Both the position numbers and the translations under genes were made by a program. Positions 1,918 to 35,626 of a stretch of 64,000 nt of DNA are shown one piece after another (the stretch's first letter is position 1; every line of letters starts with the position of its first letter). The DNA comes from Terriglobia bacterium (GTDB taxonomy: Bacteria; Acidobacteriota; Terriglobia; 2-12-FULL-54-10): the NCBI GenBank assembly GCA_965222345.1, contig CBDCTS010000004.1:641625-705624 (forward strand), read 5' to 3'. The notes beneath the pieces are model-generated. The model had not been told where the DNA came from and ran no database searches. It saw only the letters and a list, made by a program, of their open reading frames with translations.

Positions 1918-1940
1918 CGCACAACGCCGCCGCTCAGGGC

Positions 1941-3357: not shown

Positions 3358-3380
3358 TGCCTGCCTCCGTCGGCACGGGC

Positions 3381-3659
3381 TTAGAAGTTTCCCGAGGATG
3401 CCTCCTTCAGAATCGCAAGGTCCAACGCCTGATCCGCTACCAACTTCTTCAGTCGGCCATTCTCCCGTTCCAGTTCCTTCAAACGCCTCACCTGATCAAC
3501 CCGCAAGCTCCCATACTCCTTCCGCCATCGATAATATGTCTGCTCCGTGATTCCCAACTTCCGACAGACCACTCCCGTTGTCTGGCCCTTAGCCAGTTCC
3601 ACTTCTGCCTCTCGTAGATGTCGGATGATCTGTTCGACCGTATACCGCTTCTTAGCCAT
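3381..3659 (-). CDS. IS3-family transposase OrfA (element B copy 1)
   Basis: 92 aa: YTVEQIIRHL..YYRWRKEYGSL, leucine zipper. Confidence 0.85.
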   Translation of the reverse strand: MAKKRYTVEQIIRHLREAEVELAKGQTTGVVCRKLGITEQTYYRWRKEYGSLRVDQVRRLKELERENGRLKKLVADQALDLAILKEASSGNF

Positions 3660-3737
3660 CCTTCCCCCTTTTTCAAGTCCAGTTGAAACCCTTTACTCTA
3701 ACTTATCAACTGGACCGTTTTTGGGGGGGCAGGTCAC

Positions 3738-4196
3738 ATAGGGTGCGCCTGAAACTACCTGCATTGCCTCATCGCTCCTGCGATAACGTCCAGGGTCTTT
3801 CAGATCCTTGCGGCCTTTGAGCAACATCTGATGCCACCGGAACAACTTTTCGTCGGAAAGAGGTTCCGCGAACGATCGGTAGAGATCCACCATCATCTCT
3901 GCGATGCCTTGCTCCGCCGCTCCCACCGGCCGGTCATCGGTAGCCACGCCAAGCTCTTTTCGAACCGATGATTGAACGCTGGCCCTGTCCAGAATCTCCC
4001 CTTCGATTTCTGAAGTGGTCAGCGCTTCCAGGCTGATAGCCTCAATGGTGAGCCGCTCTTGATCTATCGCGTCGAGGTGCTTGATCGTACCTACGAACAT
4101 GCCGCTTCCTATCAGGAAGTGCTCTTCCGCCTTTCTCAGGAGGGAGTGATCCCAGGAGAAGACGGGCCAGTCCGGTTTTTGCCAGTTCCACGGCAT
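3738..4196 (-). pseudogene. Fic-family protein N-terminal fragment (DUF4172-like MPWNWQKPDWPVFSWD), truncated by the IS3 insertion at 3737
   Basis: ORF 3693..4196 starts with the typical Fic N-terminus but its last 15 codons read into the IS end. No Fic motif before the break. Confidence 0.6.
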
Positions 4197-17254: not shown

Positions 17255-18001
17255 TCAGATGCTAAGACTTGCCCGGTGCACTTCCAGGCGCATTTCAGTC
17301 TCACGATCTACCCTACGCAGGCACATTTCGGGATGGAGATGTAGAGCGGCGCGGTCAGTCTCGGCAATGAGTGGGGAGAACATGATGTGACCCCCGCTGT
17401 CAAAAGAGATCAGATGCGCGTCGAATGCAGCATCGAGATGCACGGCCAGCAACAGGCCGTTGTGCACGTCCAGCCGCTCGGCATCACTCTTGCATTCTGC
17501 CCATGGGATGATGTGGCTGGCGCGGAGAAGTCGCGGGTGGCTGACCCCTGTTACCGCGCAAGCACGGTCCCAAAACAGCATCAGCGCCTCGCGGAACACA
17601 TCCTGGCCGATACGTTCCTTGCGGAGCCGTTCTACCTCGGTGACTGCTGGAGGTTCGGTCAGACGCAGTCGGTATTGGCGAAGGGGTTCATCCGGTAGGC
17701 TGCGGGCAAGTCGCCAGATCGCGCCAGCAACGACGTTCAGCACACCGCTATCAGACACCTGCACTGCCAGAAAGCCGGGGGGCGCGTCGGGCAGCCGCGG
17801 CAGATCGGACTCCAAATCACGCACAGCGCCAAGGTGATCGCTGCCGATCCCATAGCCGCTATCGGTCACCGTCAGACACAGGCGGGCAGGAGCGGCGTGG
17901 GCCTGCCAGATCAGCCATTTACCCAAGGTGACTTGATTGATGCTGAATCCGTTGTCTACGGCGGCTTTTTCAAGGATTGTGCGAACTGCCATCGACAGCA
18001 T
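17255..18001 (-). CDS. HNH endonuclease (HNH_2-type, restriction-endonuclease-like)
   Basis: SHIIPWAE..DVHNGLLL..HLDAAFD motif set; 3 bp downstream of the preceding gene. Confidence 0.75.
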   Translation of the reverse strand: MLSMAVRTILEKAAVDNGFSINQVTLGKWLIWQAHAAPARLCLTVTDSGYGIGSDHLGAVRDLESDLPRLPDAPPGFLAVQVSDSGVLNVVAGAIWRLARSLPDEPLRQYRLRLTEPPAVTEVERLRKERIGQDVFREALMLFWDRACAVTGVSHPRLLRASHIIPWAECKSDAERLDVHNGLLLAVHLDAAFDAHLISFDSGGHIMFSPLIAETDRAALHLHPEMCLRRVDRETEMRLEVHRASLSI

Positions 18002-18003
18002 AG

Positions 18004-19275
18004 TTAATCCTCCAGAAATGAGTCTTTGGCCGCAGCAGCATCTCCGGATTGGAAGAGTCTCTTGACTGTCGCTGGATCGACTCCTGCACTTTCCATGAGC
18101 CTTCGAAGACTGGCCATCAATTCATTATTTTTCAGGTCCTCAATCGAAATGTCTTTGTAGACAACCTTGGCCTCAGTTGTGCCGAGAGTCACAGCCTTGT
18201 CGAACATACCGTCGGCGGCGCTTTCTATGTCTTTGCGACAGGATTTCTCGTCTGCTTTCCCGCGTCGCTTCAAATGGTCGGGTTGCGATATCTGCCACAG
18301 CTCCAGGAATTCTCCAACAAGCCGCTCGCGAAAGGTCTCCCTGCTGTTCTCAAACTTCATCTTCAGCGCTTTGTGGTATTCCGTGATGATTGCAACCAGA
18401 CGGTTCAGCTCGTTGGTCAATTGCTCCTTATCTTTTCGCAGGATGACCTTTCCGCGCCCCTTCCAGTCGTGAAAGAACGCGCGCTCGATACCGTCGCGCT
18501 CGCGCTTGATAGCGGCCTCGTTCACCTTGCACGTTTCATCACCACGATAGGATTTGATCGAGATGTCGAGTTCTGTCTTCAAGTCGATGGGGATTTTGAG
18601 ACTGGAGTCGATGTCACGTCGAAAAACCTCGTCCTCGAACTTCTGGAAACTTGGCGGCAGCTTGATCTTGCGGGAGCTGAAGGTAGCATTCGGCACACGG
18701 AGCTCAATGAACTGAACCTCGGTCATAAAAACGGTCAGCTTCCGCGTCAGATCGAAGGGATGTGGCGGACTAGCCTTCAGGTCTGCTTCCATTTGTGTAA
18801 CGCGTTCGGGCTCCATGCCTGTCACGCCAACTTCAATCTCGCCCTCGGTCGCGCCCGTTGCCTCGGCCAGCTTCTCGGTGACTCTGCCATCCAGCATGAT
18901 CGCGTTTGGTTTTTCCTCGGTGGTCGAACCTGCCTCGACATTGCGCGAGACAGGGGCGTAAACCATCGTACGGTCGTCCGAGATCACCACGCCGATGCGA
19001 ACACCGGGTTGTTCGCGCAGGTCGAACATTTGGTTTTGGCTCGCCTCACGGATGATCTCCAGCGCCTCTGGGTCTCCATAGCCCATGCGGTAGACCTCGG
19101 CATCGGCGTCGAGAATGACAGTCAACGACAGAGTTGGCATTTCATTCATGCGGGCGGCGAGCGCTTTGGCTACCGGGGTTGTTAGACCGGGGGCGATGAC
19201 GGCGATCCGGTCTTTCGCCCCTTCAATCAGGGCGATCAGGCTGTCGTCGGTGGCGGTGGTAAAGGTGCGGCTCAT
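18004..19275 (-). CDS. Uncharacterised 423-aa protein co-transcribed with the methyltransferase and HNH genes
   Basis: No recognisable catalytic motif and no HxK PLD motif. Lower GC than surrounding sequence, judged by eye. Confidence 0.55.
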   Translation of the reverse strand: MSRTFTTATDDSLIALIEGAKDRIAVIAPGLTTPVAKALAARMNEMPTLSLTVILDADAEVYRMGYGDPEALEIIREASQNQMFDLREQPGVRIGVVISDDRTMVYAPVSRNVEAGSTTEEKPNAIMLDGRVTEKLAEATGATEGEIEVGVTGMEPERVTQMEADLKASPPHPFDLTRKLTVFMTEVQFIELRVPNATFSSRKIKLPPSFQKFEDEVFRRDIDSSLKIPIDLKTELDISIKSYRGDETCKVNEAAIKRERDGIERAFFHDWKGRGKVILRKDKEQLTNELNRLVAIITEYHKALKMKFENSRETFRERLVGEFLELWQISQPDHLKRRGKADEKSCRKDIESAADGMFDKAVTLGTTEAKVVYKDISIEDLKNNELMASLRRLMESAGVDPATVKRLFQSGDAAAAKDSFLED

Positions 19276-19440
19276 CTCAAGCCCCCGTCAGCCGGTCGAA
19301 GGCGGCCAGAACAAGGCGTCGAGTGCGGTATTCGCCGTAGCGCTCGATCTCATTGCGTTTGAGGCCGCGGAAGGTTTCCGAGGGGTAACTATCCCCGTGA
19401 GTATCGGCGGGGTCGAGGATATAGCGCAACTCGTCGCGGC

Positions 19441-23655
<4,215 letters not shown>

Positions 23656-23666
23656 GTAGAATTTCC

Positions 23667-26459
23667 TTAGAGCGCGGGCATCAATACATAGAAACCAATG
23701 ACATCGACAGGCGTAATCGCGTCGACGCGGACTTGAGCCCGCGATCCCAGCGCCTGACGGACACGGGTGTGATCTTCAGCCAGTTTTTCCGCGCGCTCTT
23801 CGGCGTAGGAATTCAGCTTTGCCTCCAGCAACGGCAGCGCCGCGAGCCCGCGTTCTATCTCTGATTGCCGGAATGCCTCAGGCAGGTTGCCGCTGTCGTG
23901 CTCAAGTAGGCCGAATGCATTGTCACCGGCCATCGAGCGTGCTTGGCCCGAAGCAGAGAAGGCGATTGCCGCTGCCTCTTCCGCCATGCTGAACCTGGGT
24001 CCGAGCTTGCTCCGCGCATTGAGCTTGTGGCGGATGCGAAGGATCGCAAGCCACGTTACCTCGTCAACGCCAGCGCACTCCCAGGCACCCGTTCGGGGCA
24101 GAGCGGCAAGGTCATCTTTGGGTGCGAACGTGTCCAGCGCCTGCTCGAGAAAAGTCTCGGCCAGCACGCCGGGCAAAGGGTGGGCGCGGTGTATGGAAAT
24201 GCAGCCTGCAGGTGGCCGCGTAGAAAACCCGATCCTGATTGGCTTATCGCTCGCGTCCTCGATGAGGCTTTCGGCGACGAACCGTTCACGGAACGTCTCG
24301 GGCGTCAAGTGAACAGGCGCCCGGTATGCACCTGATGGAAGCGGGGTGAGCGCCGCGTTCAGCCGCTTCATCGCATGGATCACAAATCGTTCGGTGTCTT
24401 CATATCCACCGAGGGCAGACTGTGTCGCATCCCACTCCACCGCAACCTCTTCGGGCTTCAGAGCGTTTTGCGCAAAGATGGTGCGTGATTTCTTCTCGTT
24501 TTCGGAAGCATTCAGCCATGCCAGTTCGATTTGGTTAACCTCTTCGGAACCGCCTGAATCGAGGTCGAGGGTCATCTGCCGGGTTTCCTGCGCCCGCAGC
24601 AGCACCGCCGACATCAGGGCCTTTGTCAGGCTGCCATTGTCATCAGGTATCGGGACGCGAACCCCGGTTCGTTTTTCGATGGCGCGCGCCTTGCGAAGGA
24701 TCACGTTGAGAACGGCCCCGTCGACAGGATTGTTCTCCCCATAGATGAGCACGCTGCGCACGGTGGTGCTTTTCTGGCCGAACCGGTCTATGCGGCCCTC
24801 GCGCTGCTGGTGGCGCGTGGGGTTCCAGGACAGATCATAATGGATGACGGCATCGAACCAGCCCTGCAGGTTGATACCCTCCGAAAGGCAATCGGTGGCG
24901 ACCAGGATCCGGTTCTCGTGACCGCCGAGCTCTTCGACACGGACTTCGCGCTCGTCGGATGGCAGCATCCCGGTAACCACTTCGATCGTGTGGCTCCTGA
25001 AGGCCTTCATGAGAGCCGTAGCGACCTGTTCGGCCGTCGCGATGTACCGGCAGAAGACGACGGGTGAGAAGCCCTCACGGGTCAGCTCCTTGAGGGTTTT
25101 GACAAGAGCACGATACTTAGGGTCTTCGCCTATTTTTCCCGAGAGCGCTTCGGCCTGGCCGATCAGTGCGGCAAGGCGGGGATCGTCAATACCGGCGCCC
25201 GGTTCGAGATCGTCTTCCAGAAGTTCCTCGTCATCCAGGGTCTGCGCCGCGATGTGGGTTTCCGATATTTCCAAAGGATCAAGCTGCGCCCGGGTCTTCA
25301 AGGCTCTCGCACCTGCCGCGGGGCTCGAACCCACGCAGCGCATCAATGCTAGCGTGCCCCAGAATGCAAGGCGTTGCCGGGCATCGCCCTCGGCCGACGA
25401 GACGACCTCGGCGCAATAATCGAGAACCTGAATGTAGAAGTCTTCATAATCGCCCGTAAGTCGGTATTTGAGCTCAGTGGTTTCGTGCTGCGGGAATAGT
25501 CCGGGCTCATGCCATGCATCGATGTCGCGGCGTCTTCTCTGAATGAAGTGTGCGGCGAGTTTCTCGCGCAGGCTGCGTTGCGCTTCACCAGCGAGGTCCG
25601 GCAGGTTTGCAAACTCCTTGTCGATCAAACCAAGGAGATTGTGGAAAGCGGCCTCATTGCCGGAATGCGGGGTCGCAGTCAGCAGGATCAGGTGACGTTC
25701 GCGGTCGTCGGCCAGAGAGCGAACTAATTCGTATCGACGCTGCCGGCCACGGCCGCCGCTCACGGCGGAATGCGCTTCATCGACAACGACCATCTCGGGA
25801 CAGGCGCGCTTGAAGTCGAAAAAGCGCCTCTCGCTCTTGATGAAGTCGAGGCTCACGACCGTATAGGGGTAAGCTTCGAAAATGCTCGTCGTGTTGGGCA
25901 GATCCCTCTCAAGTCTCGCCGCCGCCGCCGTCAACGCTGTTGCCGGAATGGAGAATTTCGTCTCCAACTCCTGGGTCCATTGATCGACGAGGTGCGGCGG
26001 GCACAGAACCGTGAACCGGTCGATCTCGCCACGGTCCAGCATTTCGCGGAGGATCAACCCGGTCTCAATTGTCTTGCCGACGCCTACGTCATCGGCATTG
26101 AGGAGCCTGACCGTATCCTGGCGCAGCGCCAGCATGAGCGGTGCGAGCTGATAGGCTCGGGGTTCGAAGTTTATGCGGCCAGCGCTTCGGAACGGCCCTG
26201 CACCTCGACGCAAGGAGAGGCGAAGCGCATCCCTCAAGAGATGGGCCGCCTCTCGTCCACCCGACCGGGCTGCATCGGGGGCATCGAAGGTTGTGTAAAC
26301 GACCGGCTCAACCTCAAGGTCAGGCAGGATTGTCTCGATTTCTGCTTCAGAGCCTGTAAGGGGACGGAGCGAGAGCGCCGCATGAGCCTCGACAACAACC
26401 CATTCCCGTCCTCGAGCCCTGACAAGTTCACCTGGTGAAAACTGCTCGGCAACGCCCAT
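23667..26459 (-). CDS. SNF2-family helicase (DrmD-like)
   Basis: LNADDVGVGKT (motif I), VVVDEAH, LLTATPHSGN and QREGRIDRFGQ (motif VI). Confidence 0.9.
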   Translation of the reverse strand: MGVAEQFSPGELVRARGREWVVVEAHAALSLRPLTGSEAEIETILPDLEVEPVVYTTFDAPDAARSGGREAAHLLRDALRLSLRRGAGPFRSAGRINFEPRAYQLAPLMLALRQDTVRLLNADDVGVGKTIETGLILREMLDRGEIDRFTVLCPPHLVDQWTQELETKFSIPATALTAAAARLERDLPNTTSIFEAYPYTVVSLDFIKSERRFFDFKRACPEMVVVDEAHSAVSGGRGRQRRYELVRSLADDRERHLILLTATPHSGNEAAFHNLLGLIDKEFANLPDLAGEAQRSLREKLAAHFIQRRRRDIDAWHEPGLFPQHETTELKYRLTGDYEDFYIQVLDYCAEVVSSAEGDARQRLAFWGTLALMRCVGSSPAAGARALKTRAQLDPLEISETHIAAQTLDDEELLEDDLEPGAGIDDPRLAALIGQAEALSGKIGEDPKYRALVKTLKELTREGFSPVVFCRYIATAEQVATALMKAFRSHTIEVVTGMLPSDEREVRVEELGGHENRILVATDCLSEGINLQGWFDAVIHYDLSWNPTRHQQREGRIDRFGQKSTTVRSVLIYGENNPVDGAVLNVILRKARAIEKRTGVRVPIPDDNGSLTKALMSAVLLRAQETRQMTLDLDSGGSEEVNQIELAWLNASENEKKSRTIFAQNALKPEEVAVEWDATQSALGGYEDTERFVIHAMKRLNAALTPLPSGAYRAPVHLTPETFRERFVAESLIEDASDKPIRIGFSTRPPAGCISIHRAHPLPGVLAETFLEQALDTFAPKDDLAALPRTGAWECAGVDEVTWLAILRIRHKLNARSKLGPRFSMAEEAAAIAFSASGQARSMAGDNAFGLLEHDSGNLPEAFRQSEIERGLAALPLLEAKLNSYAEERAEKLAEDHTRVRQALGSRAQVRVDAITPVDVIGFYVLMPAL

Positions 26460-26463
26460 CGCC

Positions 26464-29400
26464 CTATCCCTTCAACACTTCATGGAGTTCTTCGTCGAAT
26501 GCAGCGCGGCGGCCGGGATCGGCTGGACGCTCCATTACCCTGACGCCCTTTGAAACCAGCTTCTCAAGGATGCCCTCATTGCCTTCACCCTCTTCCACAA
26601 CAACGAGCCGTGCACTGCGCCAGATATTCCGGAAGACCATGCCCTCGATCACCAGCGGTTTTTCATCCGGGGCCGGCGTATGGTCCGATGTCCCGCTTTT
26701 CTGTGCTTGATCAGCATCAGAGTGATCCGCATGCGCAAGCCGCAGCAGGAACGAAAGAGCGGCAGGGTCGCGCCGATCGATCAGCTCGTGATCGGGCTGA
26801 TTGAAATAAGAGAGTACGCAGCGGTAGCATCCGGCGACACACGCCGGCTCTCCTGTTTCGGACAGACGCTCCGGATTGCCTTTCGCTTCGCCAAAGCTGG
26901 CCGAATCGTAGTGCATGATCTCGAGTGCGCATTGGGCGACCTGCATCAAACCGTCATTCCAACTGACAAGTTGCGCTAATGCGCCCGCGCCGCCCTCTGC
27001 GGACTCATAAAACAGAAGTGCGTTTCTTTCGTCGGAGCTGGGTGCCGGCTCGACGAGGATTTCCCCTTCTTCCAATTGGAAAACAGATTCAATACCGCGT
27101 ACCAGTGCATGCTGAATTGTGGCGAGCGAGCGGCGTCTTTCCGATCCGAGTTCGGCAAGCCAAAGCTGGGGGAAACGAAGAAGCAGCGCATTCTTGCGGT
27201 CTTCAACCAGTGGAACGATAAGCTGCTGTAGCGTGTCGGGCCGGTTCTCGTCCTCGACGTTTTCTTTCTTCTCACCAACCCACACGCCGGATTTAGGATT
27301 GATGAAGAAGCCGACCTTCTCTTTGTCCTTGCGGCGGCGCAGTCCCTTGTTGATCCGGCTTATCTGCGCAGCCTGTGCGAAATCCAGCGTTACGATTGCA
27401 CCTGCAGGATCACGAATGACCTGTTGAGACGTGAAACTGGCGCTCTCGAACGAAAAGGTTGTCTGAAGTTCGAAACCTTGACGCTTCCGGTCCTCATTAT
27501 TCGATGTGATCCGCTCAACTGGCCGTGTGCCGACATTCTCGATCCGGTAGAGGTTGTGAACTAGGATCGCTCCATCCAGCTTCAAGCCGCAGACATGGCA
27601 CTTCTCGGGGTGTTCTCCGGGGTGTCCCGCGCCGCAGGTTTTGCAAATTGCGCGGCTTTGCGTTGTCAGCATGCCATCGGGGCGGTCGCCGGCTTCTTTC
27701 AGAAGCGCTCGGTCCACGCGGAACGCGCGGCCTTCATGGTAGACGAGGCTCTGCGGGCCAAACTCGGAAATCGCGAGAAACCTGGCGCGCTGGATATAGC
27801 GCTGGTTCTTGCCGTCAGAACCGCCCTGGACGTAGGCCATGAGTGGCAGGCGGGGGAAATTATACCCGGGAAGGAAGCCCTCCGTCGCGAGATACCGGTA
27901 CAGATAGAAGTCGTTATTCTGGGTTGATGTAGACTGCAGCAGTGTTTTCCGCTGCCAGTTTCCCATGGCGAGGCGGCTTTCGGACGCTTTCCGCTCCCGC
28001 GGAGAAATCGAGTAATCGTTGAGCGTCCGCGTCGCCAGTTCCACCGTCCGTTCGGCAGCGGCAAGCAGGTCGCGCCAACGATCAAATGCCCGACCGAAGT
28101 CGGCAGGCGCACGCTCGATCAAGGTGCGGACGAATGCCTCGCGGCCGGAGTACCAATGTGGAGAATCTCCGGCATAGTCCTCCTCGAGTGATGCGAGGAC
28201 CGTTTCGATGCGCGCGGCCGCCCGGTTCGAAGCTTCTGTGGAATTGATGACCTCGGAAATGTGGGAATGGAGCGGGCGCCCCGCATCTGACATGTCGAGG
28301 TTCTCGGGGATTCGAGGCAGCATCTCGGCCCCGCTCGCAGCAAGCCACTCCGCATGAAGGTGGCTCTCGACCAGATCCCGGTTGCCCAGATCGATTGAAG
28401 GCGGAACGACAACGCCATCGACCAGATCCTGCTTGCGGTCGAAGAAATATTGATCGTGCGGGCTCTGGGCGGCGCAGTAGGTCATGATCAGGGCGGCTTG
28501 GCCGCTGCGCCCAGCGCGCCCGCTGCGTTGGGCATAGTTCGCTGCCGTTGGTGGAGCGTTCCGGAGATAGACGACGTTCATCGAGGATATGTCGACGCCT
28601 AGCTCCATGGTTGGTGAGCAAAACAGTGTGGGCAGGAAGCGCCCGCTTTCGCGGTGTTCCTTGAGTTGATCCTTCTTTTCGTCAAGCTTTTCCTGATCAT
28701 CCTCTCCGTACCGAAAGCGAAACTCGCGCAGCTCGCGAAGTTCGCTCTCTACCTGCGCCGTATGCTCGCGCCCCTCGATCCCGAAGAGAGGGGCCGCATC
28801 AACTTCAAGGGCTTCAAATACGGATTTGTAGAGATTGGCAAAGAAACGGTTCGTCACTTCCGGATCCTGTGGGTCGGTCTGCAGATGGTAGTGGATGGTC
28901 TTGGCAATGAGCCGCCAACCGATACCACCTACTGGCGCCGAAACTTCTTCGACAATGCCGTAATTCTTTGCCGCCTGCAGCAAAGTCTCCAGGACCTCGG
29001 GAACGTCACTGGCACTCAGTTTCCTGGTGCCGAATCGGATTGCGCGGATTTTTCTTGCGAGAGCGCTTGTGGGCGTGCCGCGCAGGAGGCGCTCCTCGTC
29101 CCGTGGGCCGATCTTTGCACGTTTCGGCGGATCGAGCATCAATACTGACGCGCCTACCGTGGTTTCTTCCTCGAGCGACCAGGGTGCCTTGATCTGACCT
29201 CGCATCGTTTGAGTGATCGCGTCGAGCTTCTGTCGCCCGAGGACGGAGGTGTTTACCGCCAGGCCTTTTCTCATGTGGTCGAAAAGCTCCTGAAGCGCGG
29301 ATTGCCGTTCACCGGCGGACGCCGACTGCAGGATGGGTGATGCGGTGAACTCTTCATCATCTCGAGACAGATCGCCGATGTACTGGTATTCAGCGCGAAC

Positions 29401-31707
29401 GAGACCGAGCTGTTCGAGGTTCGGATTGGTGAACCGCCATCCCCGGCGCTGATCGATCCAGAAACGATGCTGGAGACCTTCGCGGAGTACAGCTTCCGCA
29501 TCCTCTCGCGCCTGTCCTTTCAGGCCGGGATTTTCCAGCCATTCTTCGGCGCGATGGGCAAATGCCCTGTCTGCAAGGAAGCCAAGGGCCGCCTGGATTC
29601 TCGCGCCGATTTCAGGTTCTGGAATTGAGCTGCCAGGTGCCGACTTGAGGGCGCACAGGATAGCTGCCCTCAGGAGAGTAACGAATATGAAATCGTTGAA
29701 ATATCCGGCTTGAAGGGCTGCATCCTGACGGTTGTCCGTGAAGGCCAGCAGCTTGCGCGTGTGTTCGGGCAGGTCCGATGCAGCGCTATTCATCCAGTGC
29801 AGGATGCTGGAAATCAGGATCGTTGTCGCCGAGCTTCGGCCTTCACCGCTCAGAGACGCAAGTTTGTTGATATCGCGGGCGGAAGTGTTGGAAACATCCA
29901 AGCAAGCCGGACAGAAACGGAATTTCCCCGGCATGAACCAGCATCGATTCCCCATCCCGCAATAGCCGCTTGGTGCGACTTCATGTAGACGGGCTCTGCG
30001 TTTGCGGTAGGTGGATTTCAGGCGTCTTTCGCCGCTCTTCGTATCCTCCAGCCATGCCTCCGGGTAATCATCGTTGTCTCCCTTGAAGGCGAACTCAGGG
30101 TCGGCGGGCTCGGGCATCAAAAATCCCCACTCGGCCCCTTCATCTTCCTCGTCTGCCTCGACGGGGATATCGTCAATCTCCCGTTTCTCGAAATACTCGC
30201 GCCCCTGATCGGTTCGCAAAGTAACAGGGTGAAATTCCTGACCGCAGTTCCGGCAGAAATGGACCGGATACAGACGCTCTTCTTTGTTTTGCGGGTTGAA
30301 TATCTGACCGGAGAACGTTGCATCGCGCTCGCCTTCCGGACGAAGAGTCGCATACAAGCGTCCCGCTCCGGCGATGAATTGATGGAGCTTGAAGGCGAAC
30401 AGCGGATCGCCGCTCCCATCGGTTACTCCGCGCTGGTTCTCCGGAGTACTGAATCCAATCAGGGAGTTCCGAAGAGCCGTCACGCAGTCATTTTCGGAAA
30501 ACCCGCAGTCGACAGCCAGCGCCTTAGCGGCCCACTGCAGCGAAACAGGTCTCGCCCGCTCAGGCTTGTGATCAACGTTCTTCAATCCGATCCGTGTCTC
30601 GATCCAGACGGCTAGATCGTCCTGTGCGAGATCGCCATTCGTGAGCCCCTGGCCAACATTGCCCTTCAGGGCGGCCTCGACCGCCGCCACAAGTCCAGGC
30701 AGTTTACGTTCGCCACTCCTGGACGTGTCAGTTACGCGGCAGAGCGTTTCCGTAACGACCGCATCCGCTCCGATTTTGGCGCTAAAGATTTTTGAAGCAA
30801 TTCGGGCCACAGCTGCATTTTTTTCTTCCGCAGCGCCTTCGCTAGCCATAGTCGCGGACGTGCCTACGCAAATCGGTGGATGCTTCTGATCGCCAATCCG
30901 CGCCTTGAGACGGCGCATCAGCATCGCCACATCTGCGCCCTGACGACCGCGGTAGGTGTGCAACTCATCCAGCACGACAAACTGTAAGCCGCGGCAATTA
31001 TCAATGACCTTCCGGTCCAGATCGTTCTGCCGCGTCATGAGCAACTCAAGCATCATGAAATTCGTGAGTAGGATGTCTGGCGGGTTGTCCTTAATACGCC
31101 CTCGTTCCTCGTTGCCTTCCTGACCGGTATATCGTGCGAAGGTTGGGGTATGCGGGTGTCCTGCGCCGAGATAGCACCTCAGCTCTTCTGCCTGGCTGTT
31201 TGCCAACGCGTTCATCGGGTAAATGATGATCGCGCGGGTTATCGGGGGTTGGCCCGCTTTCCGCGCCTTGATCGCGGCATCGATGATCGGGATGAAGAAA
31301 CACAGCGACTTCCCCGAGCCAGTTCCGGTCGTGACGACATAACTCTGATTGTTCAGGGCATAACCGACGGCCTGCTGCTGGTGCTTGCGAAGCTTGAGGG
31401 TTCGATCTTTTTCAGCTACGGAGGCGGAGAGGTCTCGAAACACGTCGGCACATTCCGGTTCCAGATCACCGGCATTGATGAAATCCTGGATCGATCTACC
31501 TGCAGCGTAGTGCGGGTTGAGTTGGATCAACGGATCGGGCCAGAAGCGCTTGGTAGCATACAGTTCATCAACCTTCGCTTTAAGTTTTTGCGAGCGGATA
31601 TTGGTAAATGAGCGGGCGAAAGCCTTGTAATGATTGATGACGGTTTCATCAAGATTGAATGCGTCCATTACAAACTCCCGTCCGGAGCGATCTGGGTTCT
31701 GCCGCAA
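26464..31707 (-). CDS. Giant DEAH-box helicase with a C-terminal DUF1998-type zinc-binding domain (DrmA-DrmB fusion-like, or DruE-like)
   Basis: VTTGTGSGKS, VLDELH, GTSAT and QRSGRAGRSGQ, plus an internal Zn-ribbon HFCRNCGQEFH/CPAC and a C-terminal ACVAGCYRCVLSYFNQPDHELIDRRDP (MrfA/DUF1998-like). The stop is 5 bp from the SNF2 start. Confidence 0.85.
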   Translation of the reverse strand: MRQNPDRSGREFVMDAFNLDETVINHYKAFARSFTNIRSQKLKAKVDELYATKRFWPDPLIQLNPHYAAGRSIQDFINAGDLEPECADVFRDLSASVAEKDRTLKLRKHQQQAVGYALNNQSYVVTTGTGSGKSLCFFIPIIDAAIKARKAGQPPITRAIIIYPMNALANSQAEELRCYLGAGHPHTPTFARYTGQEGNEERGRIKDNPPDILLTNFMMLELLMTRQNDLDRKVIDNCRGLQFVVLDELHTYRGRQGADVAMLMRRLKARIGDQKHPPICVGTSATMASEGAAEEKNAAVARIASKIFSAKIGADAVVTETLCRVTDTSRSGERKLPGLVAAVEAALKGNVGQGLTNGDLAQDDLAVWIETRIGLKNVDHKPERARPVSLQWAAKALAVDCGFSENDCVTALRNSLIGFSTPENQRGVTDGSGDPLFAFKLHQFIAGAGRLYATLRPEGERDATFSGQIFNPQNKEERLYPVHFCRNCGQEFHPVTLRTDQGREYFEKREIDDIPVEADEEDEGAEWGFLMPEPADPEFAFKGDNDDYPEAWLEDTKSGERRLKSTYRKRRARLHEVAPSGYCGMGNRCWFMPGKFRFCPACLDVSNTSARDINKLASLSGEGRSSATTILISSILHWMNSAASDLPEHTRKLLAFTDNRQDAALQAGYFNDFIFVTLLRAAILCALKSAPGSSIPEPEIGARIQAALGFLADRAFAHRAEEWLENPGLKGQAREDAEAVLREGLQHRFWIDQRRGWRFTNPNLEQLGLVRAEYQYIGDLSRDDEEFTASPILQSASAGERQSALQELFDHMRKGLAVNTSVLGRQKLDAITQTMRGQIKAPWSLEEETTVGASVLMLDPPKRAKIGPRDEERLLRGTPTSALARKIRAIRFGTRKLSASDVPEVLETLLQAAKNYGIVEEVSAPVGGIGWRLIAKTIHYHLQTDPQDPEVTNRFFANLYKSVFEALEVDAAPLFGIEGREHTAQVESELRELREFRFRYGEDDQEKLDEKKDQLKEHRESGRFLPTLFCSPTMELGVDISSMNVVYLRNAPPTAANYAQRSGRAGRSGQAALIMTYCAAQSPHDQYFFDRKQDLVDGVVVPPSIDLGNRDLVESHLHAEWLAASGAEMLPRIPENLDMSDAGRPLHSHISEVINSTEASNRAAARIETVLASLEEDYAGDSPHWYSGREAFVRTLIERAPADFGRAFDRWRDLLAAAERTVELATRTLNDYSISPRERKASESRLAMGNWQRKTLLQSTSTQNNDFYLYRYLATEGFLPGYNFPRLPLMAYVQGGSDGKNQRYIQRARFLAISEFGPQSLVYHEGRAFRVDRALLKEAGDRPDGMLTTQSRAICKTCGAGHPGEHPEKCHVCGLKLDGAILVHNLYRIENVGTRPVERITSNNEDRKRQGFELQTTFSFESASFTSQQVIRDPAGAIVTLDFAQAAQISRINKGLRRRKDKEKVGFFINPKSGVWVGEKKENVEDENRPDTLQQLIVPLVEDRKNALLLRFPQLWLAELGSERRRSLATIQHALVRGIESVFQLEEGEILVEPAPSSDERNALLFYESAEGGAGALAQLVSWNDGLMQVAQCALEIMHYDSASFGEAKGNPERLSETGEPACVAGCYRCVLSYFNQPDHELIDRRDPAALSFLLRLAHADHSDADQAQKSGTSDHTPAPDEKPLVIEGMVFRNIWRSARLVVVEEGEGNEGILEKLVSKGVRVMERPADPGRRAAFDEELHEVLKG

Positions 31708-31992
31708 ATTCTGCGACGAGCAAACTAACTGGATGTGTCAGCCACAGCTATTCTGTTACCGGCCAGAGCATAAAATTGCTTCCACGCTGGCAAGGGCGCT
31801 ATTTTTACGACAGAACCGCCTGAAGCCCGGTGTGACCGACAAATTCAACCAAGCCGAAACAACTTGACGGTACCTCTCAAACACCTGCGCAGGGACCTCG
31901 TCGGAGGCATGCGTGCCGGAATGTTTCAGTGAAACCATGCGCCGCTCTCTGTGATGCGAGGCCTAGCAATTAGGCCGATCTGGCTGTGCCTT

Positions 31993-33393
31993 TCACTTGC
32001 TCCAAGCCTCCTGCCATGCTGTAAACTCAGAAGGCCTGATCTGGTAGCGCGCGAAATTTCCCTCGTGCAGACCCAGAAGTTCCCTCTCGGCTACCTCGCA
32101 AAACCGCTCGCGCTCCTGCTGTTCAATAAGCTCCTGTGCCCATGCGTTGACGTGGACGGTGGCCTGCTTCTTGTCCATGCGTCCGCGAACGACCGCGCCG
32201 ACAACCTTGCGCAGCGCCATTCGGTGTCGCATCCGAAATGGATCTGGCTCGCCCAGCGACTGCTTTACTGCAGCATAGCGGGCGGCGGATCGCTTATAGG
32301 CCCAGATGAACACATCGCGAAGCAATTCGATGCGGTTCAGCTCGTAGACACCGAGCACGGCTTCGGTATAAACGCCCCGAGGCACGCTCTCGAAGGACAA
32401 CGGCGATAGATTCGCCTTGATCAGTGGAATGTTCGCTGAGAGTCGCGACACCCGCTTGTTGACATCATCGAACGGCTGCAAATAGGGAAGCTGCACCATT
32501 ACGAAGAAGGCCTGCTCGAACGGATCAATGATCGCTGAGGCGGTGGCGAGAATCTGATCGAAGCACTCTTCGATGAGTTGCGGGACCTCCAGCGGATGAA
32601 AGACCGAGCCTTCGATACCGACGCCGATATGCCGGAGCCGGCCCGCCGCATTCGGATCGGCAAGCAGGTTGCCCGCCAGCAGCGCATGAAGGTTGAGAAT
32701 GGTGTAGCGATTGAAGCCGATCTCCTCTGCTGCGTCGACCAGAAACTCGATCGCGTCCTTGTGGTTAAGGATCATCTGCGCCTCGGATCGTTCCTTCCCT
32801 TCCGCTTCTTTGCCAAGATCGATCAAACGCGCTGTATCGAGCAGCGAATAGGTGTTGCCCTCAAGACGGCTGGAGTTCCAGGATAGATCGATCAGCAGCC
32901 TGTTCAAAATCTGTTTGGCATAAGTCCCGGCGGTCTGGTTGGCGATATTAGGCCTGCCGAACTCCTGCAGGTGTGCTCGCTCCGCTTGCGAGAGATAGAA
33001 GGTATCGTTGGGCCGGTACGAATCGAGGAACGCGCGGGTATAGCCAACCGGCTTACGTGCCTCGGGCGGCCGGCAGACATACTCCTGAATCTCGGTGCCG
33101 GCCTCGGAGAACGGGGGCAGGACTTGGGCCCGCGCACTGGCTGTGGGGGATCCTGTGACTGCGTGGCCTGCCGCTGAGACCTGTCGCGGCCCGCGGTAGC
33201 GCGCCCCGCGGCCCGCGCCCTCCATAACCAAGCGCTTGCTATCGACGAGGTACTTGAGGCGGTATTGCAGGGTTCTGCGCGGCGGCGCGGACTCCAGCGC
33301 ATCGTTGATCTGCTGCGCGGTCACGCCTTCCGGATGGCGCCGTGCAGCCTGCTCGATCACCTGCAAATACTCTTCTCGAATGCGCCTTGCCAC
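31993..33393 (-). CDS. Fic/Doc-family protein with a degenerate motif (QPFDDVNKR) and an N-terminal winged-helix region
   Basis: S-SRL-EG inhibitory-helix-like motif and the core LQPFDDVNKRVSRL in place of HPFx(D/E)GNGR. A Doc-like NKR is present but the His is Gln. Confidence 0.75.
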   Translation of the reverse strand: MARRIREEYLQVIEQAARRHPEGVTAQQINDALESAPPRRTLQYRLKYLVDSKRLVMEGAGRGARYRGPRQVSAAGHAVTGSPTASARAQVLPPFSEAGTEIQEYVCRPPEARKPVGYTRAFLDSYRPNDTFYLSQAERAHLQEFGRPNIANQTAGTYAKQILNRLLIDLSWNSSRLEGNTYSLLDTARLIDLGKEAEGKERSEAQMILNHKDAIEFLVDAAEEIGFNRYTILNLHALLAGNLLADPNAAGRLRHIGVGIEGSVFHPLEVPQLIEECFDQILATASAIIDPFEQAFFVMVQLPYLQPFDDVNKRVSRLSANIPLIKANLSPLSFESVPRGVYTEAVLGVYELNRIELLRDVFIWAYKRSAARYAAVKQSLGEPDPFRMRHRMALRKVVGAVVRGRMDKKQATVHVNAWAQELIEQQERERFCEVAERELLGLHEGNFARYQIRPSEFTAWQEAWSK

Positions 33394-33524
33394 TATATTT
33401 CCCTTTATTGCGTGTAAGTTTATTCGCGTAGCTTAGACTACCTACGCGCAACTATCAATAATATACGCAAAATATAACTGCTCCTAGTCCTCCAATGACC
33501 TGCCCCCGGTTGTTGGTCCACTTT

Positions 33525-34379
33525 TTATGTTAGTCCATAAGCCGTTGCAGCCGGGTGGAGCGGAGCGGAACCCGGCCGTAACGGCAGGATCGCTTCCGGG
33601 GCTGGCGGCCGGTAGCCTAACGCGCTGTGCGGGCGAACTTTGTTATACTCCCGCCGCCATCCCTCAATCAACACCTTCGCTTCCTGCAAGGTGTAGAAGA
33701 TCTCCCCATTGAGAAACTCGTCTCGAAACTTCCCGTTCAACGATTCTACATACCCGTTTTCCCATGGGCTCCCCGGCTCGATGAACAAGGTCTTTACCCC
33801 TACCCGCTCCAGCCAGTTCCGAACCAACCGTGCTGTGAACTCGGACCCGTTATCCGAGCGAATGTAATCGGGAACTCCTCGCTCCACAAACAAGGCTGCC
33901 AGCCGTTCCAAGACACTCATCGAATCAGCTCGCCGTTCTACGTCGATTGCCAAACATTCTCGCGTGTACTCATCCACCACCGTCAACATCTTCAGGGGAC
34001 GACCATCCTGGGTTCGATCTGCCACAAAATCGTACGCCCAGACATGATCCCGCCAGCACGGTCTTAACCGAAGACACGACCCATCGTTCAACCACAGGCG
34101 GCTTTTCCGGGGTTGTTTCTTCGGCACTTTCAGTCCCTCCTGCCTCCAGATTCTCTCCACCCGCTTATGGTTCACCCTCCACCCCTCCCGTCGCAACAGC
34201 GCCGTGATTCGCCGGTAGCCGTATCGACCGTACTCGCCGGCTAACTGCAGCGTCCGGGTCACCAGTCGCGGTTCATCCTGTGGTGTCAAGGTTCGATGCC
34301 GCTGGGTGGATCGGTACTGCCTCAGCACTCGACACGCCCGCCGCTCCGACACTCCCAAGGTCTGACAGACACGCTCCAC
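33525..34379 (-). CDS. IS3-family transposase OrfB (element B copy 2)
   Basis: Identical to 2503..3357. Confidence 0.85.
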   Translation of the reverse strand: MERVCQTLGVSERRACRVLRQYRSTQRHRTLTPQDEPRLVTRTLQLAGEYGRYGYRRITALLRREGWRVNHKRVERIWRQEGLKVPKKQPRKSRLWLNDGSCLRLRPCWRDHVWAYDFVADRTQDGRPLKMLTVVDEYTRECLAIDVERRADSMSVLERLAALFVERGVPDYIRSDNGSEFTARLVRNWLERVGVKTLFIEPGSPWENGYVESLNGKFRDEFLNGEIFYTLQEAKVLIEGWRREYNKVRPHSALGYRPPAPEAILPLRPGSAPLHPAATAYGLT

Positions 34380-34402
34380 TGCCTGCCTCCGTCGGCACGG
34401 GC

Positions 34403-34681
34403 TTAGAAGTTTCCCGAGGATGCCTCCTTCAGAATCGCAAGGTCCAACGCCTGATCCGCTACCAACTTCTTCAGTCGGCCATTCTCCCGTTCCAGTTCCT
34501 TCAAACGCCTCACCTGATCAACCCGCAAGCTCCCATACTCCTTCCGCCATCGATAATATGTCTGCTCCGTGATTCCCAACTTCCGACAGACCACTCCCGT
34601 TGTCTGGCCCTTAGCCAGTTCCACTTCTGCCTCTCGTAGATGTCGGATGATCTGTTCGACCGTATACCGCTTCTTAGCCAT
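34403..34681 (-). CDS. IS3-family transposase OrfA (element B copy 2)
   Basis: Identical to 3381..3659. Confidence 0.85.
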   Translation of the reverse strand: MAKKRYTVEQIIRHLREAEVELAKGQTTGVVCRKLGITEQTYYRWRKEYGSLRVDQVRRLKELERENGRLKKLVADQALDLAILKEASSGNF

Positions 34682-34837
34682 CCTTCCCCCTTTTTCAAGT
34701 CCAGTTGAAACCCTTTACTCTAACTTATCAACTGGACCGTTTTTGGGGGGGCAGGTCACTTATCAGAGGGGCCGGAACGGAGAAGCTGCAAGCAATACTT
34801 GCATTATACATGTATTCCATATGTCAAGAAAAATCTT

Positions 34838-35626
34838 ATGGATATTTCCGAGCGGCTAAAAAATCTCCGTAAGCGATTAAATATCAACCAATTGGAATTG
34901 GCTGGCCGGACCGGATATTCCACCTCGGCTATCAGTCACTATGAACTCGGCAGAAGAAAACCGAGCCGCCGCTTTTTAGAAAAACTCGAGGAGGTGGAAG
35001 CTGCGGCGGCAAAGCCCGGCGGCAAAGCCTCCGCTGGAAAGCGGACCGACCTGCAAACCATCGGGGAGCAGATCAAATCTTTACAAAAAGAGATCGAAGG
35101 CCTGACGGCGCAGTTGAACCGGTTTCGGACGCAGGCGGAAAAGCCGGAATTCAGCCTGCCGGAGATTCGCATCTATACTAAGGAGGAATGGAAGCAGGGG
35201 ACCCAGGACCGGTTGCGCTTTCAAACCCAGATTCCTGTCCTAAGGGACGAGGCGGCGGCGGGCTCTCCGCGCGAAATCGACGGACGGGACATTGACAGCT
35301 TCATCGCCGTGCCGTCCAAGTTCGTGCCCAGGGGGCCGACGGCTTATACGGGGATTTACATCCAGGGAGACTCGATGGAGCCGGTTCTGGGCAACCGCTT
35401 CATAGTGGTGGTTGATCACACCCGCCGCGACCCGGTCCGCCTGCGGGGCAGGATGGTGGCGGCGCTGCTACAGGACGGCGTGGTGGTCAAGTGGTTGGCG
35501 CGCGAGACCCGCCGCGACCGCATCGTGTTGCGCTCCCAAAATCCGGACTACGAAGACATCGTGCTGGAGTCGCCGGAGACCGATCCGATTATCGGCAACG
35601 TGGTGTTCTGGTGGGGAGTACAATAA
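34838..35626 (+). CDS. LexA/cI-like transcriptional repressor (XRE HTH + S24 peptidase)
   Basis: N-terminal LNINQLELAGRTGYSTSAISHYELGRRKP HTH and C-terminal GDSMEP..VVKWL (Ser/Lys dyad of S24). Start set at MDISERL. Confidence 0.8.
   Translation: MDISERLKNLRKRLNINQLELAGRTGYSTSAISHYELGRRKPSRRFLEKLEEVEAAAAKPGGKASAGKRTDLQTIGEQIKSLQKEIEGLTAQLNRFRTQAEKPEFSLPEIRIYTKEEWKQGTQDRLRFQTQIPVLRDEAAAGSPREIDGRDIDSFIAVPSKFVPRGPTAYTGIYIQGDSMEPVLGNRFIVVVDHTRRDPVRLRGRMVAALLQDGVVVKWLARETRRDRIVLRSQNPDYEDIVLESPETDPIIGNVVFWWGVQ

What the first reader, a model, noticed from the sequence alone, without database searches (positions are those of the whole stretch)
31993..33393. Fic/Doc-like protein with catalytic His replaced (QPFDDVNKR) immediately upstream of the defence operon
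The core motif reads L-Q-P-F-D-D-V-N-K-R-V-S-R instead of HPFx(D/E)GNGRxxR. The N-K-R resembles the Doc kinase variant, but the invariant His is Gln and the Gly is Val.

An S-SRL-EG inhibitory-helix-like motif and an N-terminal winged-helix-like region (RTLQYRLKYLVDSKRL) are present.

It may be a pseudo-enzyme or sensor/regulator of the adjacent DISARM-like operon, or a non-canonical Fic. A second Fic gene (a different type, MPWNWQKPDWP N-terminus) at 3738..4196 was destroyed by the IS.
Basis: partly seen in the sequence, partly recalled or inferred. Interest (0 to 1): 0.55.

Follow-up and report, generated by a model that had tools for sequence, protein, structure and literature searches.

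The report
Self-repressing mobile Fic gene lacking histidine
The gene is an intact member of a very large, horizontally mobile family of Fic-fold proteins that all carry glutamine instead of the catalytic histidine and appear to repress their own promoter, and its position next to the DISARM-like defence operon is coincidental.

Summary
ORF 31993-33393 (-) encodes a 466-aa Fic-fold protein whose active-site loop reads QPFDDVNKRVSR where FICD has HPFIDGNGRTSR. It also has an N-terminal winged helix and an SSRLEGN inhibitory-helix motif.

This is not a one-off decay. More than 8000 homologues exist. Gln is present in 114 of 118 diverse members and His in none, while D, N, K, R, R, the inhibitory Glu and the flap G/R stay conserved. 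dN/dS is 0.17-0.34. The motif class was already noted in silico in 2015 (Khater & Mohanty, "clade D2") with no function assigned.

New here:
- The gene is a solo cassette of about 1.6 kb, found in many phyla with unsaturated synonymous divergence (dS 0.25-0.74).
- It always carries an array of TTGCGC(A/G)TA operators that overlaps its own promoter.
- Operator sequence co-varies with the winged-helix wing, and divergent subfamilies pair a different recognition helix with a different repeat. Autorepression is therefore the best-supported function.

The DISARM link is not supported. None of 85 homologous loci has that operon, no neighbour recurs, and no operator lies before the helicase gene. An IS3 copy has cut the distal operators at -103.

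Whether the Gln site still catalyses anything is unresolved.

The parts
31993..33393 (-). wHTH-Fic(Gln) gene, 466 aa, GTG start, intact
   Evidence: ORF. Pfam Fic above the gathering score. AF2 model pLDDT 92. Foldseek top hits are FICD/Fic-1. dN/dS 0.17-0.34 against homologues.
33193..33375 (-). N-terminal winged helix-turn-helix (residues 7-67). Recognition helix RTLQYRLKYLV; wing GAGRGARYR.
   Evidence: DSSP topology H7-18, H26-32, H39-51, E56-58, E65-67. Sub-threshold profile matches to the wHTH repressors BlaI and ArsR. The helix is nearly invariant across loci. Wing residue 63 co-varies with the operator flank.
33133..33180 (-). Disordered linker (residues 72-87)
   Evidence: pLDDT below 50.
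32854..32874 (-). Inhibitory-helix motif SSRLEGN, matching (S/T)xxxE(G/N), with Glu178
   Evidence: Translation. Aligns to FICD TVAIEGN. E178 in 111/118 and G179 in 112/118 members.
32632..32643 (-). Flap (target-docking hairpin) signature GRLR (G251, R254)
   Evidence: Aligns to FICD aGRFR. G251 and R254 each in 117/118 members.
32443..32478 (-). Active-site loop QPFDDVNKRVSR in place of HPFx(D/E)GNGRxxR
   Evidence: Translation. Alignment to FICD. Counts out of 118: Q306 114 (His 0), F308 118, D310 105, V311 87 (G 12), N312 115, K313 102, R314 106, R317 118.
31999..32328 (-). C-terminal all-helical domain (residues 356-465), no known family
   Evidence: AF2 helices 356-465 with pLDDT of about 90 or more. 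No Pfam or NCBIfam match.
33394..33495 (-). Residual promoter and operator array. Operators: TTGCGTATA (33462-33470, position -77), TTGCGCGTA (33443-33451, -58), degenerate CTACGCGAA (33423-33431, -38), inverted TACACGCAA (33408-33416, -23). -35-like TTGATA (33453-33458), 17-nt spacer, -10-like TAAGCT (33430-33435).
   Evidence: Sequence. The pattern is enriched: 3 clustered hits here out of 4 in the window, against 0.98 expected. The same architecture is conserved in 80 independent upstream regions.
33496..34758 (-). IS3-family element, copy 2 (1263 bp, TG...CA ends, orfA 34403-34681, orfB 33525-34379). It is inserted at -103 of the Fic(Gln) gene, removing the distal operators, and is transcribed toward the gene.
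   Evidence: 99.9% identical to copy 1 at 2474-3736. Pfam HTH_Tnp_1 and rve. No TTGCGC sites on its far side.
17255..31707 (-). Context only, not part of the cassette: DISARM-like operon. It comprises a DEAD helicase + MZB/DUF1998 fusion (26464-31707), an SNF2 helicase (23667-26459), a DrmMI-like N6-MTase (19441-23655), an unknown 423-aa protein (18004-19275) and an HNH nuclease (17255-18001).
   Evidence: Pfam and PADLOC. Absent next to all 85 homologues.

Best explanation
The gene is a typical, intact member of a very large family of class II-type Fic proteins whose active-site loop is QPFxD(V/G)NKRxxR. It behaves as a self-contained single-gene cassette of about 1.6 kb that moves between phyla, partly on plasmids.

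How it most likely works:
1. The N-terminal winged helix binds an array of TTGCGC(A/G)TA operators. These lie at about -78, -58 and -38 in forward orientation, spaced 19-21 bp apart, and at about -20, -92 and -110 in inverted orientation.
2. The array overlaps the gene's own -35, spacer, -10 and 5'UTR, so the protein represses its own synthesis. This step is inferred from comparative data and has not been shown experimentally.
3. The Fic domain keeps the metal and phosphate ligands (D310, N312, R314, R317), the target-docking flap (G251, R254) and a cis inhibitory Glu (E178). It has Gln for the general-base His and a Doc-like Lys.
4. I therefore infer that it still binds a nucleotide and a protein target and acts as the effector. 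That would make it a restrained toxin-like or defence-like module with altered or attenuated chemistry, rather than a scaffold.

It is not a component or dedicated regulator of the neighbouring DISARM-like operon. The two merely share an IS-rich variable island. In this window an IS3 copy has removed the distal operators at -103 and can read through into the gene.
For: Fold and motif placement.

Family size and motif conservation:
- More than 8000 hits; the top 120 are at least 76% identical, and 111 of the 120 carry exactly QPFDDVNKRVSR.
- 4351 representatives of 50%-identity clusters match; the Q-motif holds down to about 40% identity.
- Column counts give Q in 114/118 and His in 0.

Selection and mobility:
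- dN/dS is 0.17-0.34, and dS is only 0.25-0.74 to copies in Acidobacteriota, Gemmatimonadota and Nitrospinota.
- Nucleotide homology is confined to about -80 through stop +76.
- 32 plasmids carry the gene.

Solo gene:
- No conserved neighbour and no conserved small ORF.

Autoregulation:
- 349 TTGCGC/GCGCAA cores lie in -200..0 of 85 loci, against about 4 per strand per 100 bp elsewhere, and none occur downstream.
- Site positions and the 19-21 bp spacing are fixed.
- The best sigma70-like match clusters with its -35 at about -65 and its -10 ending at -40 to -35, so the operators fill the spacer and the TSS region.
- With Trp63 in the wing, 75% of sites are TTGCGCnTA; without it, 23% (Fisher 2e-20; per-locus Mann-Whitney 1.5e-6).
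- Four divergent plasmid members pair a different recognition helix with a different 3-4-copy upstream repeat.

Precedent: CccR, a Fic toxin that represses its own promoter through palindromes near -35 and -10 (PMC9755527).

Independence from DISARM.
Against: - No experiment exists for any family member. DNA binding, nucleotide binding and catalysis are all inferred.
- The covariation statistics are not corrected for phylogeny.
- The general-base His, which is essential in all characterised Fic and Doc enzymes, is absent. The domain could therefore be catalytically dead.
- In this window the -10 element is weak (TAAGCT), one proximal operator is degenerate and the distal ones are lost, so regulation here may be abnormal.
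- No terminator-like site was found by the simple scan in the 285-bp gap between the gene and the helicase gene. Co-transcription with the DISARM-like operon cannot be excluded.
- Roughly 15-20 of 140 immediate neighbours of homologues are defence genes, so some functional tie to defence islands in general remains possible.
Confidence: 0.6

Rival explanations
1. Pseudo-enzyme. The Fic domain has lost catalysis and serves only as a ligand- or target-binding module, either as a nucleotide sensor that tunes the winged-helix repressor or as a stoichiometric binder or trap of a target protein.
For: The catalytic His is replaced in every member (Q in 114/118, His in 0). The Gly-to-Val and Gly-to-Lys changes alter the anion hole. 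The phosphate ligands and the flap are kept, which is what a binding-only module would still need.
Against: - A solo, cross-phylum mobile gene whose only identifiable DNA target is its own promoter needs an output. A pure sensor would have none.
- The inhibitory Glu is strictly retained. Its known role is to restrain or steer catalysis, which is hard to explain for a dead site.
- Khater & Mohanty argue from His-to-Gln precedents that residual activity is plausible (PMC4454073).
Confidence: 0.3
2. Dedicated sensor or regulator of the adjacent DISARM-like operon.
For: The gene is on the same strand, 285 bp upstream, with no terminator-like site found by the simple scan in between. It carries a DNA-binding domain.
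Against: None of the 85 homologous loci has the operon, and no neighbour recurs. The operator motif is absent from the gap before the helicase gene and occurs only once elsewhere in the 64 kb, which is chance level. Homology between loci ends at the cassette borders. The region is an IS-bracketed mosaic.
Confidence: 0.05
3. Doc-type kinase toxin: a Doc relative that phosphorylates a translation factor using inverted ATP.
For: The NKR Lys is as in Doc. A 2015 phylogeny placed the Q-motif clade inside the Doc branch (PMC4454073).
Against: - No Doc structure is matched by sequence, profile or fold, whereas FICD is (E 6e-11, 5e-16 and 8.5e-9).
- The protein has the flap signature, the cis inhibitory helix and the final motif Arg. 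The final Arg is absent from the Doc-type motifs listed in PMC4454073.
- No Phd-like or other small partner ORF is present.
- The His that Doc needs is missing.
Confidence: 0.08
4. Decaying pseudogene or chance motif.
For: The gene sits in an IS-ridden region where another Fic gene has been destroyed.
Against: The ORF is full-length. dN/dS is 0.17-0.34. The motif is identical in 111 of the 120 closest homologues. The model has pLDDT 92.
Confidence: 0.01

Closest known systems
Khater & Mohanty 2015 'clade D2' (consensus Qx[F|Y]x[D|E][G|V]NKR), PMC4454073
   Same: Exactly the same motif class, His to Gln with NKR. It is bacterial only, and its function is unknown. The authors also argued that it is maintained by selection.
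   Different: That paper described 45 sequences, 'usually single-domain', placed in the Doc branch. Here the family has thousands of members with three modules (wHTH, class II Fic, C-terminal helical domain). It is closest to FICD rather than Doc, and it has a conserved operator array and cross-phylum mobility, which that paper does not mention in the passages read.
CccR of Yersinia pseudotuberculosis (PDB 7XUX), PMC9755527
   Same: A Fic protein fused to a DNA-binding domain that represses its own promoter through repeats near -35 and -10. It is a Foldseek hit.
   Different: CccR has a canonical His motif and AMPylates FtsZ. Its HTH is C-terminal, its operator is one inverted repeat pair with a 26-bp spacer, and it is a T6SS effector.
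FICD/HYPE and C. elegans Fic-1 (class II Fic; PDB 6i7k, 5jj6)
   Same: Best sequence and fold match. The inhibitory helix (S/T)xxxE(G/N) lies N-terminal to the core, and the flap and motif loop are in the same register.
   Different: FICD has HPFIDGNGRTSR, TPR domains and a membrane anchor, and performs bifunctional AMPylation and deAMPylation that needs the His.
CbFic2 (PDB 8cil) and SoFic (PDB 3eqx/3zcn; PADLOC SoFic defence gene)
   Same: Bacterial Fic proteins with an attached wHTH. DNA binding regulates CbFic2 activity (PMC10628234), and SoFic is a single-gene abortive-infection toxin (PMC12249575). Both give weak PADLOC or Foldseek matches.
   Different: Both have a canonical His motif and a C-terminal HTH. 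SoFic has a small downstream antitoxin (AS1), and no such ORF is conserved here.
Doc (phage P1 Phd/Doc)
   Same: Lys in the GN(K)R position.
   Different: Doc is about 126 aa (from prior knowledge), keeps the His, is paired with Phd, and its motif type lacks the final Arg (PMC4454073). No similarity to Doc was detectable here.

Membership tests
Fic/Fido fold (Pfam PF02661) | HMM match above the gathering score, and the Fic fold | tested here: met
   37.8 bits against 24. Foldseek probability 1.00 to FICD, Fic-1, CdFic and SoFic.
Canonical AMPylating Fic | Motif HxFx(D/E)GNGRxxR with the catalytic His | tested here: not met
   The loop reads QPFDDVNKRVSR: His to Gln, Gly to Val, Gly to Lys. No His at this column in 118 members.
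Canonical AMPylating Fic | AMP transfer to a target hydroxyl | not testable with these tools
   Requires a biochemical assay.
Class II Fic (cis N-terminal inhibitory helix) | (S/T)xxxE(G/N) motif N-terminal to the core in the same chain | tested here: met
   SSRLEGN aligns to FICD TVAIEGN. E178 in 111/118 members.
Doc kinase toxins | HxFx(D/N)(A/G)NKR with the His, no final Arg, a small single domain, and a Phd partner | tested here: not met
   Only the Lys matches. His is absent and the final Arg is invariant. The protein is 466 aa with three modules. No partner ORF. No Doc hit at E<=10.
Gln-variant clade 'D2' (PMC4454073) | Motif Qx[F|Y]x[D|E][G|V]NKR | tested here: met
   QPFDDVNKR fits the consensus.
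Gln-variant clade 'D2' (PMC4454073) | 'Usually single-domain' and placed in the Doc branch | tested here: not met
   The architecture is wHTH + Fic + C-terminal domain, and the nearest relatives are FICD-type. I could not compare directly with their 45 sequences.
DISARM (class 1) | Is one of drmA, drmB, drmC, drmD or drmMI, or recurs with them | tested here: not met
   No PADLOC Drm hit for this protein. None of the 85 homologous loci has the operon.
SoFic single-gene defence | Full-length match to the SoFic model, a canonical motif, and phage protection | tested here: not met
   Only a partial, weak match (E 1.6e-10, residues 137-329 to profile positions 32-217 of 361). The motif is non-canonical. 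Phage protection is not testable here.
Autorepressing Fic-HTH proteins (CccR-like), judged by function | A DNA-binding domain that recognises repeats overlapping its own promoter | tested here: inconclusive
   There is strong comparative support: a conserved array, promoter overlap, and wing/helix-operator covariation. There is no binding experiment.

The most novel reading that the evidence does not exclude
The Gln-Fic family is a single-polypeptide, self-repressing toxin-immunity or defence module that spreads between phyla as a bare promoter-plus-gene cassette. Its Fic active site, with Gln plus a Doc-like Lys while keeping the final Arg and the inhibitory Glu, would perform a chemistry not yet described for Fic domains. 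That could be a His-independent transfer or a hydrolysis in which Gln positions the nucleophile. Activity would be released when repression or the inhibitory helix is relieved.
Probability: 0.25. Interest if true: 0.75.

Novelty: new variant of a known kind. Interest (0 to 1): 0.5.

Why it matters
Fic enzymology rests on an invariant catalytic His. This family has thousands of members in many phyla, is under purifying selection and is recently mobile. It has swapped that His for Gln while conserving every other active-site element and the inhibitory Glu, so it is either a new Fic chemistry or a widespread Fic pseudo-enzyme with a real job.

It was flagged in silico in 2015 and apparently never followed up. 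The analysis here makes it experimentally tractable. It gives a defined 1.6-kb cassette, a predicted operator (TTGCGC(A/G)TA, 20-bp phased), a predicted specificity determinant (wing Trp63 and the recognition helix) and clear mutants to test (E178G, Q306H/A).

For annotating this window, it also removes a tempting but unsupported link to the DISARM-like system.

Tried and rejected
- DISARM linkage: tblastn of all operon proteins against the 85 loci found nothing beyond weak generic helicase similarity in L028, L029 and L007.
- Conserved partner gene: de novo clustering of flanking ORFs of at least 80 aa and of small ORFs of at least 30 aa found none. The apparent small-ORF clusters are antisense translations of the operator array.
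- Conserved 3' element, terminator or attC-like site: none. Homology fades within 30-76 nt of the stop.
- Continuation of the operator array beyond IS copy 2: absent. Neither IS copy has target-site duplications, so an IS-mediated rearrangement is more likely than a simple insertion.
- Remainder of the DUF4172-Fic gene beyond IS copy 1: not there. Another IS3-type element lies there instead.
- NCBIfam: no match.
- Phage carriage: one weak partial hit only.
- Exact-protein contig lookup and cluster naming for the window protein returned nothing, so the source organism was not identified.
- Literature searches for the literal motif strings found only irrelevant papers.
- The first dN/dS script timed out and was rewritten.
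- I could not measure distances in the model (for example N210/H211 to the active site), because the coordinates are not exposed.
Full report
**1.

The minus-strand ORF 31993-33393 (GTG start, 466 aa) is real.
- Pfam's Fic model matches residues 228-322 at 37.8 bits, above the gathering score of 24.
- A phmmer search of the PDB finds FICD and C. elegans Fic-1 (E 6e-11 to 1e-8). It aligns QPFDDVNKRVSR on HPFIDGNGRTSR and SSRLEGN on the TVAIEGN inhibitory motif (translations verified).
- The substitutions therefore sit at the true catalytic positions: H to Q, first G to V, second G to K. The Asp, the Asn and both Arg residues are kept.
- An AlphaFold2 model built on 118 diverse homologues is confident (mean pLDDT 92, pTM 0.70).
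- The model shows a winged helix (residues 7-67), a disordered linker (72-87), a conserved helical extension (97-146), the Fic core (about 157-352) and a C-terminal helical domain (356-465).
- Foldseek against the PDB returns FICD/Fic-1 first (E about 1e-8), then bacterial Fic proteins including CdFic, CccR (7xux), CbFic2 (8cil) and SoFic. No Doc appears in the top 50.
- A family profile hits FICD at 5e-16 and no Doc even at E<=10.

**2. The Gln motif defines a huge family; it is not local decay**

- The word-indexed search saturated at 8000 hits. The best 120 are full-length and at least 76% identical, and 111 of them carry exactly QPFDDVNKRVSR.
- Among representatives of 50%-identity clusters, 4351 match at E<=1e-3 and 842 at E<=1e-30. 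QPFxD(V/G)NKRxxR persists down to about 40% identity.
- Column counts in the 118-sequence alignment:

| Residue | Count out of 118 |
|---|---|
| Q306 | 114 (no His at all) |
| F308 | 118 |
| D310 | 105 |
| V311 | 87 (G 12, L 10) |
| N312 | 115 |
| K313 | 102 |
| R314 | 106 |
| R317 | 118 |
| E178 (inhibitory Glu) | 111 |
| G251, R254 (flap) | 117 each |
| N210 (family-specific) | 118 |
| H211 (family-specific) | 116 |

- dN/dS between the window gene and eight homologues is 0.17-0.34.
- The 'pseudogene' reading is excluded.

**3. Prior knowledge**

- Khater & Mohanty (Sci Rep 2015, PMC4454073) already listed a fifth Fic/Doc motif class, Qx[F|Y]x[D|E][G|V]NKR.
- They called it 'clade D2 of Doc subfamily': 45 sequences, 'usually single-domain', bacteria only. 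They argued that selection implies function.
- I found no later work on it.
- The motif variant itself is therefore known in silico. Its function is not.
- The present data disagree with the 'Doc' and 'single-domain' labels.

**4. A solo, mobile cassette**

- Eighty-five loci were fetched. They come from Acidobacteriota, Gemmatimonadota, Nitrospinota, Spirochaetia, Chloroflexota, Rhodothermales, and Alpha-, Beta-, Gamma- and Deltaproteobacteria, at 64-86% protein identity.
- Synonymous divergence to copies in other phyla is only 0.25-0.74, so transfer was recent.
- Nucleotide homology to the window runs from about -80 to at most 76 nt past the stop. The 3' flanks share no conserved structure.
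- No flanking gene recurs. The largest ORF cluster is generic ABC-type paralogues in 13 loci.
- The 140 nearest neighbours fall into 124 Pfam families, none in more than three proteins.
- No small ORF is conserved, unlike the SoFic/AS1 pair (PMC12249575).
- Thirty-two plasmids carry the gene, always annotated just 'Fic family protein'. Phages essentially do not carry it.
- Roughly 15-20 of the 140 immediate neighbours are strong PADLOC hits (AriA, type IIG RM, SIR2-pAgo partners, MADS, ZacC, DruF, AbiEi, GajA, CapP). Transposases are also among the neighbours (Pfam).
- The cassette therefore often lands in variable or defence islands, but with no fixed partner.

**5. Conserved operator array and autoregulation (inferred)**

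- Upstream of nearly every homologue lies an array of WWWnTTGCGC(A/G)TA(G) sites.
- The TTGCGC/GCGCAA core occurs 349 times in the 200 bp upstream of the 85 starts. Elsewhere it occurs about 4 times per strand per 100-bp bin, and there is no enrichment downstream.
- Forward sites sit at about -78, -58 and -38, with 19-21 bp spacing. Inverted sites sit at about -20, -92 and -110.
- The best sigma70-like match clusters at one register: the -35 starts near -65 in 27 of 80 loci, and the -10 ends at -40 to -35 in 31 of 80. The -58 site therefore fills the spacer and the -38 site covers the -10/TSS region.
- The recognition helix RTLQYRLK is nearly invariant, as is the TTGCGC core.
- The wing co-varies with the flank. 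In the 65 loci with Trp63, 246 of 328 sites read TTGCGCnTA. In the 17 loci without it, from diverse clades, only 22 of 97 do (Fisher 2e-20; per-locus Mann-Whitney 1.5e-6). This test is not phylogeny-corrected.
- Four divergent plasmid members (40-51% identity over the Fic and C-terminal part) have a different recognition helix, and each has a different 3-4-copy upstream repeat: GATCGYGACAT, TGCGCCA, AATCGTTTC and AATCTTGTCA. Three of them keep the QPFxD(V/I/G)NKRxSR loop. My pattern did not find the loop in the Sulfitobacter protein (L090), which still has SSRMEGN.
- This is the pattern expected if the winged helix binds its own promoter. That has been shown experimentally for the Fic toxin CccR (PMC9755527).

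**6. The window copy**

- The proximal sites are retained: TTGCGTATA (-77), TTGCGCGTA (-58), a degenerate CTACGCGAA (-38) and an inverted TACACGCAA (-23). They flank TTGATA-17 nt-TAAGCT.
- IS3 copy 2 (33496-34758) abuts the array at -103. The array does not continue on its far side.
- The IS transposase genes point toward the Fic gene, so read-through is possible (inference).
- IS copy 1 (2474-3736) is 99.9% identical, lies in direct orientation 31,022 bp away, and truncates the DUF4172-Fic gene. Neither copy has target-site duplications.

**7. Relation to the DISARM-like operon**

- The downstream genes are a DEAD helicase + MZB/DUF1998 fusion (best PADLOC hits DruE, also DrmA and DpdJ), an SNF2 helicase (DpdE 1e-185, DrmD 3e-72), a DrmMI-like methylase, an unknown 423-aa protein and an HNH nuclease.
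- None of these accompanies the Fic homologue elsewhere.
- The operator pattern has 4 hits in 64 kb: 3 in the Fic promoter and 1 isolated inside a distant ORF. None lies in 31708-31992.
- The adjacency is best read as co-residence in an IS-bracketed island.
- Co-transcription cannot be excluded, because the simple scan found no terminator-like site in the gap.

**8. Mechanism and uncertainty**

- Shown by sequence and comparison: the fold, the motif placement, family-wide conservation, solo mobility, the operator array and the covariation.
- Inferred: autorepression, nucleotide and target binding, and a toxin-like or defence-like effector role.
- Argument for a working site: every phosphate or metal ligand, the flap and the inhibitory Glu are conserved. 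In addition, a cross-phylum solo gene whose only evident DNA target is its own promoter needs an output.
- Argument against: no characterised Fic or Doc enzyme works without the His.
- My estimates are about 0.6 for the overall picture and about 0.3 for the pure pseudo-enzyme version. I put the DISARM-regulator and Doc-kinase readings each under 0.1.

**9. Verdict**

This is a correct and worthwhile observation of an under-studied Fic variant, but the window gene is an ordinary member of it and the proposed defence-operon link does not hold. Novelty: a new variant of a known kind. The motif class has been published. The autoregulated-cassette architecture and the cross-phylum mobility appear to be undescribed. 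Interest: 0.5.

Noticed in passing
window 33394-33495; loci L001-L085, -200..0 relative to the Fic start: A conserved array of TTGCGC(A/G)TA operators, phased at about 20 bp and overlapping the gene's own promoter, is present across phyla. The operator flank co-varies with wing residue 63.
   Followed up: yes
L088-L091 (plasmids of Cereibacter, Massilia, Sulfitobacter, Comamonas), about 200 bp upstream of the Fic gene: Divergent family members have a different N-terminal recognition helix and a different 3-4-copy upstream repeat each. This suggests orthogonal specificity classes, as in toxin-antitoxin or immunity systems.
   Followed up: partly
window 2474-3736 and 33496-34758: Two 99.9%-identical 1263-bp IS3-family copies lie in direct orientation and bracket about 29.7 kb. 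That stretch holds the truncated DUF4172-Fic gene, an Ank-M48 protein, a TIR protein, the DISARM-like operon and the Fic(Gln) gene. Neither copy has target-site duplications. This may be a composite transposon or the product of IS-mediated rearrangement.
   Followed up: partly
window ~1075-2250 (-): A third, different IS3-type element (orfA MPIRNYKPEQ..., orfB 1075-1917) lies directly beside IS copy 1. The C-terminal half of the DUF4172-Fic gene is therefore missing from the window.
   Followed up: partly
window 17255-31707 (-): The 'DISARM-like' operon is atypical. It has a single 1747-aa helicase + MZB/DUF1998 fusion that scores best on Druantia DruE models, and an SNF2 protein that scores far better on DpdE (1e-185) than on DrmD. 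It also has a DrmMI-like methylase, an unknown 423-aa protein and an HNH nuclease. No PLD (DrmC) was seen.
   Followed up: partly
window 14526-15929 (-) and 16310-16837 (-): A TIR-domain protein (ThsB-like; PADLOC PDC-S66, 4e-59) and a small HTH protein lie just downstream of the operon, so this is a multi-system defence island.
   Followed up: no
window 8731-11127 (-), repeats 9512-10610: A 798-aa protein combines a long ankyrin-repeat array (ten 102-nt tandem units at the DNA level) with a C-terminal M48 peptidase domain.
   Followed up: no
window 34799-35626 (+): An HTH + S24 peptidase (LexA/CI-like) gene starts 40 bp from the outer end of IS copy 2. It has no counterpart near any Fic(Gln) homologue.
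   Followed up: partly
L028 and L029 (same Rhodobacteraceae MAG): Two near-identical copies of the cassette each sit 372 bp from a contig end and are followed by different helicase-like genes. The cassette appears to lie in a repeated region of that genome.
   Followed up: no
residues N210/H211 (window ~32761-32766): An Asn-His pair is invariant in this family (ILNHK) but is not conserved in FICD. Its distance to the Gln site could not be measured. It is a candidate for a relocated catalytic residue.
   Followed up: no
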